From the human T2T-CHM13v2.0 reference genome, Homo sapiens, in assembly GCF_009914755.1 (NCBI RefSeq), contig NC_060935.1: a DNA stretch of 64,000 nt, one strand, 5' to 3'. Position 1 is the first letter of the stretch. Every line of letters begins with the position of its first letter. Position numbers and translations under genes: made by a program. The notes under the pieces were generated by a model. The model was not told the DNA's origin and did no database searches. It saw only the letters and a program-made list of their open reading frames with translations. This document shows, piece after piece, positions 50,028 to 60,736 of this stretch.

Positions 50028-50087
50028 CAAGGCATTCAAACCTTTGGTCTCAGGACTGCTTTTTGCTCTTCAAAAATACTGAGGGCC
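50028..50087 (+). mobile_element. Left end of a hAT-Charlie element (MER20B-like), cut by the L1 insertion
   Basis: ttcaaacctttggtctcaggac...ctcttcaaaaatactgagggcc matches the recalled MER20B start; preceded by gtctagta, resembling the Charlie target preference NTCTAGAN. Confidence 0.65.
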
Positions 50088-51091
50088 AGAGGGTAGCTGG
50101 CAAAATGGTCTGCAGCTCCCAGAAAGATCGACACAGAAGGCAGGTGATTCCTGCATTTTCAACTGAGGTACCCGGTTCATCTTACTGGAACTGGTTGGAC
50201 AGTGGGTGCAACCCACGGAGGGCGAGCCGTAGCGGGGTGGGGCGTCACCTCACCCAGGAAGCACAAGGGGTCGGGGGATTTCCCTTTCTTAGCCAAGGGA
50301 AGCTGTGAGAGACTGTATCGGGAGGAACGGTGCATTCTGGCCCAGATACTGTGCCTTTCCCATGGCCTTTGCAACCAGCAGACTAGGAGATTCCCTTTGG
50401 TGCCTGGCTAGTCTGGTTGCTCCTCCACGGAGCCCAGCAAGCTAAGATCCACTGGCTTGAAATTCTCGCTGCTCCACAGCAGTTTGAAGTCGACCTGGAA
50501 CACTCCAACTTGGTGGTGGGAGGGGCATCCACCACTGCTGAGGCTTGAGTAGGGGGTTTTACCCTCACAGTGTAAACAAAGCTGCTGGGAAGTTCGAACT
50601 GGGCAGAGACCACTGCAGCTCCCTGGGACAGATCACCTTGGGGAAGGGGCGGCTGTGGGCACAGCTTCAGCAAATTTAAATGTCCCTGCCTGACAGCTGT
50701 GAAGAGAGCTGCGGTTCTCCCAGTACAGTGTTTGAGCACTGATGAGGTACAGACTGCCTCCTCAAGTGGGTCCCTGACCCCCGGTGTATGCAGACTGGAA
50801 GACACCTCCCAGTAGGGGCCGACAGGTACCTCATAAAGGAAAGCTCTCCCTGGCATCTGGCAGGTGCCCCTCTGGGAGAAAGCTTCCCCAGGCACGAACA
50901 GGCAGCAATCTTTGTTGATCTGCAGCCTCTGCTGGTGATACCCAGGCAAACAGGATCTGGAGTGGTCCTTTAGCAAATTCCAGCAGACCTGCAGCAGAGG
51001 GGCCTGACTATTAGAAGGAAAACTAACAAACAGAAAGGAATAGTGTCAACATCACCAACATCAAAGACCAAAGTTAGAAAAATCCATGAAG

Positions 51092-52113
51092 ATGGTGAGA
51101 AACCAGCACAAAAAAGCTGAAAATTCCAAAATACAGAACGTCTCTTCTTGTGCAAAGGATCACAACTCCTCACTAGCAAAGGAACAAAACTGGATGGAGA
51201 ATGAGCTTGACGAATTAACAGAAGTCGGCTTCAGAAGGTGCATAACAACAAACTTCTCCAAGCTAAAGGAGCAAGTTCTAACCCAATGCAAGGAAGCTAA
51301 GAACGTGGAAAAAATTTTAGATGAATTGCTAACTAGAATAACCAGCTTAGAGAAGAACATCAGTGACCTGATGGAGCTAAAAACACAGCATGAGAACTTC
51401 GTGAAGCATACACAAGTATCAATAGCTGAATCGATCGAGCAGAAGAAAGGATATCAGGGATTGAAGATCAACTCAATGAAATAAAGACAGAAGACAAGAT
51501 TAGGAAAAAAAGAGTTAAAAGAAATGAACAAAGCCTCCAAGAAATATGGGACTATGAGAAAAGACCAAATCTATGTTTGATTGGTGTACCTGAACGTGAT
51601 CGGGAGAATGGAACCAAGTTAGAAAACACTCTTCATGATATCACCCAGGATAACTTCCCCAACCTAGCAAGGCAGGCCAACATTCAAATTCAGGAAATAC
51701 AGAGAACACCACAAAGATACTCTACGAGAAGAGCAACCCCAAGACATATAATTTTCAGATTCCCCAAGGTTGAAATGAAGGAAAAAATATTAAGGGCAGC
51801 CAGAGAGAAAGGTCAGGTTACCCACAAAGGGAAGCCCATCAGACTGACAGTGGATCTCTCAGCAGAAACCCTACAAACCAGAAGAGAGTAGGGGCCAATA
51901 TTCAATATTCTTAAAGAAAAGAATTTTCAACCCAGAATTTCATATCCAGCCAAACTAAGCTTCATAAGCGAAGGAGAAATAAAATCCCTTACAGATAAGC
52001 AAATGCTGAGAGATTTTCACCATGAGGCCTGCCTTACAAGAGCTCCTGAAGGAAGCACTAAACATGGAAAGGAACAACCAGTACCAGCCACTGCAAAAAC
52101 ATGCCAAACTGTA
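51092..52113 (+). pseudogene. Disrupted L1 ORF1
   Basis: Fragments 51086-51484 and 51577-51891, broken by a frameshift and stops. Confidence 0.85.
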
Positions 52114-52177
52114 AAGGCCATTGATGCTATGAAGAAACTGTATCAACTAACAGGCAAAACAACCAACTAGCATCATA

Positions 52178-55100
52178 ATGACAGGATCAAATTCACACGT
52201 AACTATATTAACCTTAAATGTAAATGCCCCAGTGAACAGACACAGACTGGCAAATTGGATAAAGAGTTAAGACCCAAGGGTGTGCTGTATTCAGGAGACT
52301 CATCTCATGTGCAAAGACACACATAGGCTGAAAATAAAGGGATGGAGGAATATTTACCAAGCAAATGCAAAGAAAAAAAATTGGGTTGCAATCCTAGTTT
52401 CTGATAAAACAGACTTTAAACCAACGATCAAAAGGACAAAGAAGGGAATTACATAACGGTAAAGGGATCAATGCAACAAGAAGAGCTAACTCTCCTAAAT
52501 ATATATGCACCCAATACAGGAACATCCAGATTCATAAAGCAAGTTCATAATGACCTACAAAGAGACTTAAACTCCCACACAATAATAGTGACAGACATTA
52601 ATACACCACTGTCAATATTAGACAGATCAATGAGGCAGAAAATTAACAAGGATATCCAGGACTTGAACTCAGCTCTGGACCAAGCAGACCTAATAGACAT
52701 CTACAGAACTCTCTACCCCAAATCAACATCGTATACATTCTTCTCAGCACCACATCACACTTATTCTAAAATTGACCACATAATTGGAAGTAAAACACTC
52801 CTCAGCAAATGCAAAAGAAAGGAAATCATAACAAACGGTCTCTAAGACCACAGTGCAATCAAATTAGAACTCAGGATTAAGCAATTCACTCAAAACTACA
52901 TGGAAACTGAACAACCTGCTCCTGAAAGACTACTGGGTAAATAACGAAATGAAGGCAGAAATACAGATGTTCTTTGAAACCAATGAGAAAAAAGACACAA
53001 TATACCAGAATCTCTGGGACACATTTAAAGCAGTGAGTAGAAGGAAATTTATAGCACAAAATGCCCACAAGAGAAAGCAGGAAAGATCTAAATTGACACA
53101 CTAACATAACAATTAAAATAACTATAGAAGCAAGAGCAAACACATTCAAAAGGTAGTAGAAGAAATAACTAACATCAAAGCAGAACTAAAGGAGCTAGAG
53201 ACAAAAAATCCTTCAAAAAATCAATGAATCCAGGAGCTGTTTTTTTTGAAAAGATCAACAAAATAGATATACCACTAGCTAGACTAATAAAGAAGAAAAG
53301 AGAGAAGAATCAAATAGATGCAATAAAAAATGATAATGGGGATATCACCACCAATCCCACAGAAATACAAACTATCATCAGAGAATATTATAAACACCTC
53401 TAAGCAAATAAACTAAAAAATCTAGAGGAAATAGATACATTCCTGAACACATACCACTTCCCAAGACTAAACCAGGAAGAAGTCAAATTCCTGAATAGAC
53501 CAATAACAAGTTCTGGAATTGGGGCAGTAATTAATAGCCTACCAATGAAAAAAAGCCCAGGAGCAGAGGGATTCACAGCTAAATTCTACCAGAGGTACCA
53601 AAAGGAGCTGGTACCATTCCTTCTGAAACTATTCCAAACAATAGGAAAAAGGGAGTCCTCTCTAATTCATTTTATGAGAGCAGAATCATCCTGATACCAA
53701 AACCTGGCAGAGACACAACAAAAAAAGAAAATTTCAGGCCAATATCCCTGATGAATATCGATGTGAAAATCCTGAATAAAATACTGGCAAACTGAATCCA
53801 GCAGCACATCAAAAAGCTTATCCACCACGATCAAGTCGGCTTCATCCCTGGGATGCAAGTCAGTTTCAACATATGCAAATCAATAAATGTAATCCATCAC
53901 ATAAACAGAATCAATGACAAAAACTGCATGATTATCTCAATAGATGCAGAAAAGGCCTTTGAGAATTTTCAACACCCCTTCATGCTAAAAACTCTCAATT
54001 TACTAGTTATCGATGGAATGTATTTCAAAATAATAAGAGCTATTTATGACAAACTCACAGGCAATATCATACTGAATGGGCAAAAACTGGCAGCATTCTC
54101 TTTGAAAACCAGCACAAGACAAGGATGCCCTCTGTCACTGCTCCTATTCAACACAGTATTGGAAGTTCTGACCAGGGCAATCAGCAAAGAGAAAGAAAGA
54201 AAGTGTATTCAATTAGGAAAAGAGGAAGTCAAATTGTCTCTCTTTGCAGATGACATGATTGTATATTTAGAAAACCCCATCGTCTCAGTCCAAAATCTCC
54301 TTAAGCTGATAAGCAACTTTAGCAAAGTCTCAGGATACAAAATCAATGTGCAAAAATCACAAGCATTCCTATACACCAATAACAGACAAACAGAGAGCCA
54401 AATCATGCGTGAACTCCCTTTCACAATTGCTACAAAAAAAAATACCTAGGACTACAACTTACTAGGGATATAAAGTACCTCTTCAAGGAGAACTACAAAC
54501 CACTGCTCAAAGAAATAAGAAAGGATACAAACAAATGGAAAAACATCCCATGTTCATGGATAGGAGGAATCAATATCATGAAAACGGCCATACTGCCCAA
54601 AGTAATTTATAGATTCATTACTATCCCCATCAAACTACCAATGACTTTCTTCACAGAATTTGAAAAAACTACTTTAAATTTCATAGGGAACCAAAATAAA
54701 GCCTGCATAGCCAAGACAATCCTAAGAAAAAAGAACAAACCTAGAGGCATCATGCTACCTGACTTCAAACTGTACTACAAGGCTACAGTAACCAAAACAG
54801 CATGGTACTGGTACCAAAACAGATATACAGACCAATGGAACAGAACAGAGGCTTCAGAAATAACACCACACATCTACAACCATCTGATCTTTGACAAATC
54901 TGACAAAAACAAACAATGGGGAAATGATTCCCTATTTAATAAATGGTGTTGGGAAAACTGGCTAGCCATATGTAGAAAGATGAAACTGGATCCCTTCCTT
55001 ACACCTTATACAAAAATCAACTCAAGATGGATTAAAGACTTAAATCTCTAATCCAAGATGGATTAAAGACATAAAACCATACAAACCCTGGAAGAAAACC

Positions 55101-60011: not shown

Positions 60012-60325
60012 ATTTTGTGTGTGTGTGTGTGTGTGTGTGTGTGTGTGTCAGAGTCTCGCTTTGTCGCCCAGGCTGGAGTGCAGCAGCGCGATCTGGGCTC
60101 ACTGCAGGCTCCGCCCCCCAGGTTCACGCCATTCTCCTGCCTCAGCCTCTCGAGCAGCTGGGACTACAGGCGCCCGCCGCTACGCCCGGCTAATTTTTTG
60201 TATTTGTAGTAGAGACGGGGTTTCACCGTGTTAGCCAGGATGGTCTCGATCTCCTGACCTCGTGATCTGCCCGTCTCGGCCTCCCAAAGTGCTGGGATTA
60301 CAGGCGTGAGCCACCGCGCCTGGCC
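60012..60325 (-). mobile_element. Young AluY (AluYe-like) element with a (CA)n tail
   Basis: gcaggctccgcccccc and cgctacgcccggc; CpG-rich; TSD tattgtgtgga (59999-60009 / 60326-60336). Confidence 0.93.
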
Positions 60326-60417
60326 TATTGTGTGGATTTTTAAGATATTAGTAGGGAGCTTAAATTTTGTTAGTAAATTCTTAGCTTACTACCTTGGGCT
60401 TTGCATTGCTTTTCAGA

Positions 60418-60423
60418 AATAAA
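60418..60423 (+). promoter_or_regulatory. AATAAA polyadenylation signal, putatively used by the read-through L1 transcript
   Basis: 16 nt upstream of the A-tract that merges into the right TSD. Confidence 0.65.
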
Positions 60424-60440
60424 AGTTTAAAATTACCTTA

Positions 60441-60736
60441 AAAAATATTGAGGGCCTGCAGACTTTGTTTATGTGGGTTGCATCTATCAATGTTTACCAT
60501 ACAGAAAATTAAAACTTAGTGTAACAATGTCTATTTTTAAGTAAAAACATATTGCATGTTAACATACACAATATATTTGTTAATATGTTTTCCAAAAAAT
60601 TAACAAAAAGAGTGACTACGATTTTTACTTTTATGGAAAACACTTTAATATCTGGTTCATTGAAGACAGATGAATTCTTACAGGTACTTCCAGTTTCAAT
60701 CCATTGAATCATGCTGCATTAGTTGCAGTCTATGAA
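60441..60736 (+). mobile_element. Continuation of the MER20B-like hAT element
   Basis: aaaaatattgagggcc..tttgtttatgtgggttgcatctatcaatgtttacc..aaattaaaact continues the consensus broken at 50087. Confidence 0.7.

What the first reader, a model, noticed from the sequence alone, without database searches (positions are those of the whole stretch)
50072..60456. Full-length L1 with a ~4.25 kb 3' transduction: one ~10.4 kb retrotransposition event splitting a hAT element
Seen: the 16-mer immediately before the L1 5' end (aaaaatactgagggcc, 50072-50087) recurs not at the L1 3' end but 4.25 kb further on (aaaaatattgagggcc, 60441-60456; one C/T mismatch). Just before the second copy are AATAAA (60418-60423), 16 nt, then an A-tract. 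The L1's own end reads gtataatttaaaaaa, with no AATAAA. Recalled knowledge: sequence left of the first copy and right of the second joins into one MER20B-like hAT element, and L1 read-through to a downstream poly(A) site gives 3' transductions with this layout. Inference: 56192-60440 was copied from the flank of a source L1 elsewhere, ~3.6 kb once the two younger AluY insertions are removed. That is long for a fixed transduction of this age and would tag an ancient active source locus. Repeat annotation alone would not show it. Caveat: another AATAAA at ~59710 must have been bypassed or arisen later.
Basis: partly seen in the sequence, partly recalled or inferred. Interest (0 to 1): 0.85.

Follow-up and report, generated by a model that had tools for sequence, protein, structure and literature searches.

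The report
Old L1 that carried chr4 DNA
An ancient jumping gene (L1) on chromosome 11 took along about 3.6 kb of DNA copied from chromosome 4 when it inserted, a long but otherwise ordinary example of a well-known process.

Summary
A 16-base repeat (15 of 16 identical) brackets 50088-60440, and no other copy lies in the window. The block is a 6,104-base full-length L1 (50088-56191) followed by 4,249 bases of non-L1 DNA. That DNA has exactly one paralog in this genome, at chr4:104,777,375-104,781,029. The chr4 copy is colinear, 8.8% diverged, and lacks both younger Alus. It runs on as unrelated sequence at both ends. The chr11 copy stops 17 bases after the only AATAAA the two copies share. The two chr11 flanks abut in other copies of the same old repeat. 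So one L1-driven event, roughly 20-40 Myr ago, inserted about 9.7 kb, of which about 3.6 kb came from chr4. Its AATAAA caveat is answered: chr4 reads AACAAA there. One thing was not found: chr4 has no L1 at the boundary, so the source L1 is inferred, not seen. No sibling copies exist. Both A-runs are only six bases long. This is a long instance of a known process, of modest interest.

The parts
50030..50071 (.).
   Evidence: The left flank 50030-50087 matches 4 of 15 family copies, directly next to their match to the right flank.
50072..50087 (+). 5' target-site duplication, AAAAATACTGAGGGCC
   Evidence: It is preceded by TC, so the bottom strand reads a T-run followed by GA, which fits an L1 endonuclease site.
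50088..56191 (+). Full-length L1, 6,104 bases, with coding capacity lost (one part; gene bounds not given)
   Evidence: There were 54,220 first-look candidates in the genome; the best scored copies are 84-89% identical. The 5' end coincides with that of 5 of 5 relatives. The longest sense-strand open frame is 198 codons. No own target-site repeat flanks the L1 alone.
56186..56191 (+). Six-A run between the L1 and the carried sequence. It is the remnant of the source's tail and/or the start of the source's target-site copy.
   Evidence: chr4 itself has five A at this point.
56192..60440 (+). Carried (transduced) block: a copy of chr4:104,777,375-104,781,029. It is 4,249 bases now and was about 3,585 at insertion.
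   Evidence: Over 3,545 aligned bases p = 8.8%. The largest gap is 18 bases.
56401..56724 (-). Younger Alu inserted after the event, with direct repeats at 56388-56400 and 56725-56737
   Evidence: Rfam 7SL-type matches. It is absent from chr4, which holds the repeat once.
58030..58330 (-). Older Alu-like element, carried over from chr4
   Evidence: It is covered by the colinear alignment, 11.4% diverged over 298 columns. A sub-threshold mir-3135 Rfam match lies at 58066-58125.
59150..59530 (+).
   Evidence: It is shared with chr4, 12.8% diverged over 376 columns. A print search for a 17-mer from it found nothing.
59829..59895 (.). MADE1-like palindrome, carried over from chr4
   Evidence: Sub-threshold Rfam mir-548 matches on both strands. 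The same family matches the chr4 copy at L004 5745-5811.
60010..60325 (-). Second younger Alu inserted after the event, with direct repeats at 59999-60009 and 60326-60336
   Evidence: Rfam 7SL-type matches. It is absent from chr4.
60418..60423 (+). AATAAA poly(A) signal used to end the carried block
   Evidence: It is the only AATAAA shared by the chr11 and chr4 copies. Homology ends 17 bases later.
60441..60456 (+). 3' target-site duplication, AAAAATATTGAGGGCC. Its leading A cannot be told from a residual poly(A) tail.
60457..60736 (.). Right piece of the same old interspersed repeat
   Evidence: 15 other loci match 60441-60640. Matches extend at most to 60736.

Best explanation
One L1-mediated retrotransposition event, roughly 20-40 million years ago, inserted about 9.7 kb into an old interspersed repeat on chr11. 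The insert was a full-length L1 followed by about 3.6 kb copied, unspliced, from chr4:104.777-104.781 Mb. The most likely route is a classical 3' transduction. An active L1 sat at the chr4 site and its transcript ran past its own end. The transcript was cleaved and polyadenylated about 17 bases after the first canonical AATAAA downstream. The whole RNA was then reverse-transcribed at a T-rich nick on chr11, giving a 16-base target-site duplication. Two Alus landed in the carried block later. SHOWN: the single bracketing repeat, the chr4 origin, the end at a poly(A) site, and the contiguity of the flanks. INFERRED: that an L1 once sat at the chr4 boundary. That allele is not in this genome. Either it was never fixed or it was later removed cleanly.
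For: The 16-mer pair is unique in the window. No repeat flanks the L1 alone: no shared word of 7 bases or more lies between 50028-50087 and 56177-56270. The flanks abut in other copies of the old repeat. In 2 of the 4 loci that match both flanks, the two matches overlap on the 16-mer. In the other 2 they lie 3 and 13 bases apart. Each of 4 of 4 unique probes from the block hits only chr11 and chr4, plus one 48-base chr14 match. chr4 is colinear with the block, its largest gap is 18 bases, and p = 8.8%. chr4 runs on at both ends with no A-tail and no flanking repeat. The window's flanks share only an Alu with chr4. Homology ends 17 bases after the sole shared AATAAA, and chr4 then has 45% T over the next 40 bases. 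The AATAAA at 59710 is AACAAA in chr4. The chr4 start point is an A-run preceded by G, which is an L1-endonuclease-like site. The L1 has no canonical poly(A) hexamer in its last 600 bases. In print, these are the stated hallmarks of 3' transduction, and source L1s absent from the reference are known (passages of PMC4859970, passages of PMC12350158). No gene is annotated at the chr4 locus.
Against: chr4 has no L1 homology between L004 832 and 2374 or between 6030 and 10000. The only L1 upstream on the same strand ends more than 1.3 kb away and is 78% identical, too distant to be the source. No sibling insertion carries any part of the block. Both A-runs are only six bases long, and five bases of each can be explained without a tail. 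Print describes two clear homopolymer stretches as typical. Eleven of the 15 copies of the old repeat showed no left-flank match. chr4 reads a 7-base word just before the boundary that also ends the L1 body; I have no explanation for this. The genome search scores only the best candidates and hides closed regions. Only one genome could be searched.
Confidence: 0.75

Rival explanations
1. L1/cellular-RNA chimera. A polyadenylated transcript of the chr4 region was reverse-transcribed first. The enzyme then switched to the 3' end of an L1 RNA, or the two RNAs were joined beforehand. This gives the same layout without any L1 ever having sat on chr4.
For: No L1 lies at the chr4 boundary and no siblings exist. 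The A-run at the chr4 start could have guided a switch onto an L1 poly(A) tail. L1 chimeras with other RNAs exist in print (passages of bioRxiv 10.1101/2025.02.02.635956).
Against: In the passages read, known chimeras place the foreign RNA 5' of an L1 3' piece, the reverse of this layout. No gene or transcript is annotated at the chr4 locus. The block is an unspliced, repeat-rich 3.6-kb stretch, which is what read-through from a neighbouring promoter would give. In print, 466 of 5,311 polymorphic L1 insertions carry a transduction, so the prior for transduction is far higher.
Confidence: 0.13
2. Two separate events at one spot. A retrocopy of a chr4 transcript inserted first and made the 16-base duplication. 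A full-length L1 later landed exactly at its 5' junction.
For: Nested insertions are common; two Alus did land inside the block.
Against: The L1 has no target-site repeat of its own. It would have had to land to the base between the 5' repeat and the first carried base. Its 3' end abuts the first chr4-derived base with only six A between.
Confidence: 0.04
3. DNA-level copying of chr4 sequence into chr11, by segmental duplication or repair-mediated capture, next to a pre-existing L1.
For: Repair-mediated duplications were frequent in primates 30-42 Mya (passages of PMC2671141).
Against: The copy ends 17 bases after an AATAAA and starts at the L1's last base. One target-site repeat brackets the L1 plus the block. 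The title of that paper concerns capture of proximal DNA, not DNA from another chromosome (listing).
Confidence: 0.02

Closest known systems
L1 3' transduction (Moran 1999; Goodier 2000; Pickeral 2000 - recalled, papers not held; described in PMC4859970, passages read)
   Same: A complete L1 is followed in the same orientation by unique DNA from another locus. One target-site duplication brackets both. The carried DNA ends 17 bases after an AATAAA. The target is a T-run nick site.
   Different: The carried part is about 3.6 kb. The polymorphic and somatic events in the passages read are mostly under 1 kb. Both A-runs have shrunk to six bases. The parent locus carries no L1 in this assembly.
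Transductions from source L1s absent from the reference (Solyom 2012, seen only as a reference title and table entry; source presence/absence scoring in PMC12350158)
   Same: The carried sequence maps to a locus where the reference shows no L1, so the source is inferred from its offspring.
   Different: Those cases are recent and the source can still be found in other people. Here the event is tens of millions of years old and the source allele is probably extinct. This copy is also not an orphan: it keeps its full-length L1.
L1 chimeric insertions (U6/L1, Alu/L1, mRNA/L1; bioRxiv 10.1101/2025.02.02.635956, passages read)
   Same: Two RNA-derived parts, in the same orientation, lie inside one target-site duplication.
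   Different: In those chimeras the foreign part lies 5' of a usually truncated L1 3' piece. Here it lies 3' of a full-length L1 and ends at its own poly(A) site.
Processed retrocopy of a cellular transcript
   Same: The chr4-derived block ends at a poly(A) site and was inserted at an L1-type target.
   Different: It is unspliced, comes from a place with no annotated gene, and is fused to an L1 at its 5' end.

Membership tests
L1 3' transduction | An L1 with its complete 3' end is followed directly by non-L1 sequence in the same orientation | tested here: met
   L1 homology runs to 56191. chr4-derived sequence starts at 56187-56192.
L1 3' transduction | One target-site duplication brackets the L1 plus the extra sequence, and none brackets the L1 alone | tested here: met
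   The 16-mer pair is 15 of 16 identical and unique in the window. No shared word of 7 bases or more flanks the L1 alone.
L1 3' transduction | The extra sequence ends 10-30 bases after a poly(A) signal | tested here: met
   AATAAA lies at 60418-60423 and homology to chr4 ends at 60440. The 10-30 base rule is from print.
L1 3' transduction | Two A-stretches: one after the L1 and one at the end of the extra sequence | tested here: inconclusive
   There are six A at each place. Five at the first are also present in chr4, and five at the second belong to the target-site repeat.
L1 3' transduction | The extra sequence is a copy of a unique locus elsewhere that continues past both ends of the copied block | tested here: met
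   chr4:104,777,375-104,781,029 is the only paralog. It has unrelated flanks and no A-tail.
L1 3' transduction | The parent locus carries a related L1 directly 5' of the block. This is corroborating rather than defining: print accepts sources absent from the reference. | tested here: not met
   No L1 homology lies within 1.5 kb upstream of the boundary on chr4. The nearest same-strand L1 is 78% identical.
L1 3' transduction | An empty target site in species that split off before the event | not testable with these tools
   No primate genomes are on hand. As a substitute, the two flanks abut in 4 of 15 paralogous copies of the old repeat.
LINE-1 element | About 6 kb long, very high copy number, and a 5' end shared with other full-length copies | tested here: met
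   The element is 6,104 bases. There were 54,220 first-look candidates. Its 5' end coincides with that of 5 of 5 relatives.
LINE-1 element | Encodes the two L1 proteins (identified by domain matches) | not tested
   Only frame lengths were seen: the longest sense-strand frame is 198 codons.
LINE-1 element | Subfamily (L1PA number) from diagnostic positions | not testable with these tools
   No labelled repeat library was available. Age alone points to the L1PA4-6 or L1PA7/8 periods given in print.
L1 chimeric insertion (U6/L1 type) | The foreign RNA lies 5' of an L1 3' piece | tested here: not met
   Here the foreign part lies 3' of a full-length L1.
hAT DNA transposon (MER20B) | The flanks belong to one repeat family and are contiguous in other copies | tested here: met
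   The right flank has 15 relatives. The left flank abuts it in 4 of them.
hAT DNA transposon (MER20B) | A match to a labelled consensus, terminal inverted repeats and an 8-base target duplication | not testable with these tools
No labelled library was available.
MaLR LTR (THE1D) | A match to a labelled LTR | not testable with these tools
   No labelled library was available. A print search with a 17-mer from the fragment found 0 papers.

The most novel reading that the evidence does not exclude
No L1 ever sat on chr4. Instead, a full-length L1 RNA became joined to the 5' end of an unrelated, polyadenylated chr4 transcript, by template switching, ligation or trans-splicing. That would give a '3'-side' L1 chimera, a layout absent from the catalogue passages read.
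Probability: 0.12. Interest if true: 0.6.

Novelty: new member of a known kind. Interest (0 to 1): 0.35.

Why it matters
This is a clean, datable case in which parent and offspring of an ancient L1 event can both be read. Their 8.8% divergence gives an age independent of any subfamily consensus. The event shows that a cDNA of about 9.7 kb was completed from a start 3.6 kb beyond the L1. It also records an active L1 locus on chr4 that has left no copy of itself at home, which is a reminder that catalogues requiring a visible parent element will miss such events. It moved a MaLR-type LTR fragment, an old Alu and a MADE1-like element to a new chromosome. No gene is involved at either locus, so no functional consequence is apparent.

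Tried and rejected
Chance repeat: rejected.

L1 with its own target-site repeat plus unrelated neighbours: rejected, because no repeat flanks the L1 alone.

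chr4 as the derived copy: rejected. It has no A-tail and no flanking repeat, and it continues on both sides.

The same-strand L1 upstream on chr4 as the source: rejected. It is 78% identical and ends more than 1.3 kb before the boundary.

The minus-strand L1 further upstream on chr4 (85% identical): rejected, because it has the wrong orientation.

Spliced transcript: rejected, because the largest gap is 18 bases.

'The parent block is unusually poor in AATAAA': not supported. One was observed against 1.62 expected, and 1,013 of 2,000 shuffles had one or fewer.

Sibling search: 4 of 4 probes found no third copy.

The left flank alone found only itself in the genome search. A more sensitive local comparison was needed.

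Naming from print: two sequence-string searches found 0 papers.

Papers not held: Szak 2003, Pickeral 2000, Hoyt 2022 (journal version) and Tubio 2014. What I say of Goodier, Pickeral, Szak, Moran and Khan is recalled.

Table S13 of the T2T repeat paper may list this event. Supplements are closed, so I could not check.

A microhomology switch at the 7-base word on chr4 was considered and rejected. It would have removed the L1's last bases, which chr11 keeps.

One search was a faulty script of mine. It printed a long, useless tally, and nothing from it is used.

Full report
OBSERVATION. AAAAATACTGAGGGCC sits at 50072-50087 and AAAAATATTGAGGGCC at 60441-60456. With up to two mismatches these are the only two matches in the 64-kb window. 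The expected number is 0.08, and 0 of 100 shuffles gave two or more. AATAAA lies at 60418-60423, then 16 bases, then six A, five of which belong to the repeat. The L1 ends GTATAATTTAAAAAA at 56191. Its sense strand holds no AATAAA or ATTAAA in the last 600 bases.

THE L1. The stretch 50088-56191 (6,104 bases) drew 54,220 first-look candidates in this genome. The 40 that were scored gave copies 84-89% identical. Its first 888 bases drew 6,123 candidates, the best 86% identical. When it was aligned with the 5' ends of five relatives, homology among all six begins within a few bases of 50088, directly after the 16-mer. This copy has one short gap in the untranslated leader. It is therefore full-length. 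The longest sense-strand open frame overlapping it is 198 codons. That is far below what I recall intact L1 genes need, so both genes are interrupted more than once. I did not count stops and frameshifts. I also did not use the inner genes to name the subfamily, because the operators reserve that step.

THE CARRIED BLOCK AND ITS PARENT. I used four probes from the non-Alu parts of 56192-60440: 56192-56391, 58340-59150, 59530-59830 and 60337-60440. Each hit only the window itself and one other place, chr4:104,777,375-104,781,029 on the plus strand, at 84-95% identity. One additional 48-base match fell on chr14. A local comparison shows that window 56187-56400 and 56725-60009 are colinear with L004 2370-5925.

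Piecewise global alignment, with the pieces kept apart at the two Alus, gives 3,545 aligned bases. The divergence is p = 8.8% (K2P 9.4%), or p = 7.8% (K2P 8.2%) without CpG sites. There are 41 small gaps, the largest 18 bases. Divergence runs at 7-12% per full 400-column bin. The block is therefore an unspliced copy.

Both younger Alus are missing from chr4, which holds each of their target repeats once. The older Alu-like element, the LTR-like fragment and the MADE1-like palindrome are shared, so they predate the event.

THE TWO BOUNDARIES. At the 5' side, chr4 has unique, non-L1 sequence up to an A-run. From that A-run onward it matches chr11, where the same bases follow the L1's last bases. 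At the 3' side, both copies read AATAAA and 17 further shared bases. chr11 then goes into the A-run and 16-mer, while chr4 goes on as unrelated sequence that is 45% T over the next 40 bases.

This AATAAA is the only one the two copies share. Four ATTAAA are shared and were passed over.

chr4 has no A-tail and no repeat of the boundary word within the fetched 18 kb (L003 and L004). It shows no L1 homology between L004 832 and 2374 or downstream of the block. The window's own flanks share nothing with chr4 except an Alu. No gene is annotated at the chr4 locus, which lies between PPP3CA and BANK1. chr4 is therefore the parent and chr11 the RNA-derived copy.

THE TARGET. The right flank 60441-60640 has 15 relatives elsewhere in the genome. 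All 15 match the right flank in a sensitive local comparison. Four of them (L011, L016, L018, L024) also match the left flank 50030-50087. In L016 and L024 the two matches overlap on the 16-mer, so it is present once. In L011 and L018 the matches lie 13 and 3 bases apart. Eleven of the 15 gave no left-flank match at E <= 0.01. The left flank alone found only itself in the genome search. The flanks are thus one old repeat split by the insert. No word of 7 bases or more is shared between the L1's 5' flank and the sequence after its 3' end, so the L1 has no target repeat of its own.

MECHANISM. Everything fits one target-primed reverse transcription of an RNA of about 9.7 kb. Its 3' 3.6 kb was transcribed from chr4 and cleaved at a canonical poly(A) site. 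The insert now measures 10,353 bases; removing the two Alus and their repeats, about 664 bases, gives the size at insertion. This is the layout print gives for 3' transduction, including carriage of the source's 3' target-site copy (passages of PMC4859970).

The source L1 itself is missing. Print shows that source elements are often absent from a reference genome. Over tens of millions of years an unfixed source allele would be lost.

The main rival is a chimera between an L1 RNA and an independent chr4 transcript. Sequence from one genome cannot exclude it. However, known chimeras have the opposite layout, no transcript is annotated there, and transduction is common: 466 of 5,311 polymorphic L1 insertions carry one. 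I put read-through from a lost source at about 0.75, the chimera at about 0.13, and two-step or DNA-level origins together at about 0.06.

AGE AND FAMILY. The parent-offspring K2P of 0.094 gives about 21 Myr at 2.2e-9 per site per year, the rate quoted in PMC2671141. It gives about 39 Myr at about 1.2e-9, a slower human-lineage rate that I recall from human-macaque comparisons. The one mismatch in the 16-base repeat agrees with this; about 1.4 would be expected at 8.8%. Print places L1PA4-6 and AluY at 18-30 Mya and L1PA7/8/8A at 30-42 Mya. The L1 is therefore of middle primate age and the later Alus fit, but I cannot give the subfamily number.

HOW UNUSUAL. In the passages read, polymorphic and somatic transductions are mostly under 1 kb, partly for technical reasons. 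The T2T repeat preprint reports 183 highest-confidence L1 3' transductions in this same assembly. Its table is in a closed supplement, so this event may already be listed. A pipeline that requires a parent element may have ranked it low. A 3.6-kb carried block behind a full-length L1 is long but is of a known kind.

LEFT UNEXPLAINED. Just before the boundary, chr4 reads a 7-base word that is also the last word of the L1 body before its AT-rich end. I estimate the chance of this at well under 1%, and no model I tried accounts for it.

Noticed in passing
L004 about 2359-2369 (chr4, just upstream of the boundary) versus window about 56167-56176: chr4 reads a short word, 7 bases exact and 10 of 11 with one gap, that also closes the L1 body on chr11. 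It sits right where homology to chr11 begins. No explanation was found.
   Followed up: partly
window 61194-61394: RefSeq lists a silencer (an MPRA fragment, peak1434) about 750 bases to the right of the insertion.
   Followed up: no
window 49894-49904: The 11 bases AATACTGAGGG, which form the core of the target-site repeat, occur again about 180 bases upstream of it. This may be another fragment of a related old repeat, or chance.
   Followed up: no
window 50088-50975 versus genome copies: Relatives of the L1 leader fall into two structural classes. Eight listed copies are colinear over bases 19-888. Many others carry about 100 extra bases near the middle of the leader. This may separate subfamilies.
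   Followed up: no
window 56401-56443 and 60017-60048: The tails of the two younger Alus have turned into microsatellites, a TTTTG-type repeat and a TG repeat.
   Followed up: no
L003 1588-5616 (minus strand) and L003 7457-8977 = L004 1-977 (plus strand): Two other L1 pieces lie upstream of the chr4 parent block. One, on the opposite strand, is 85% identical to the window's L1. An older one on the same strand is 77-78% identical. Neither can be the source.
   Followed up: partly
window 56192-56400 and 60337-60440: The two ends of the carried block are less diverged from chr4 (6.2% and 2.9%) than its middle (9.1%). The samples are small, at 209 and 103 bases.
   Followed up: no
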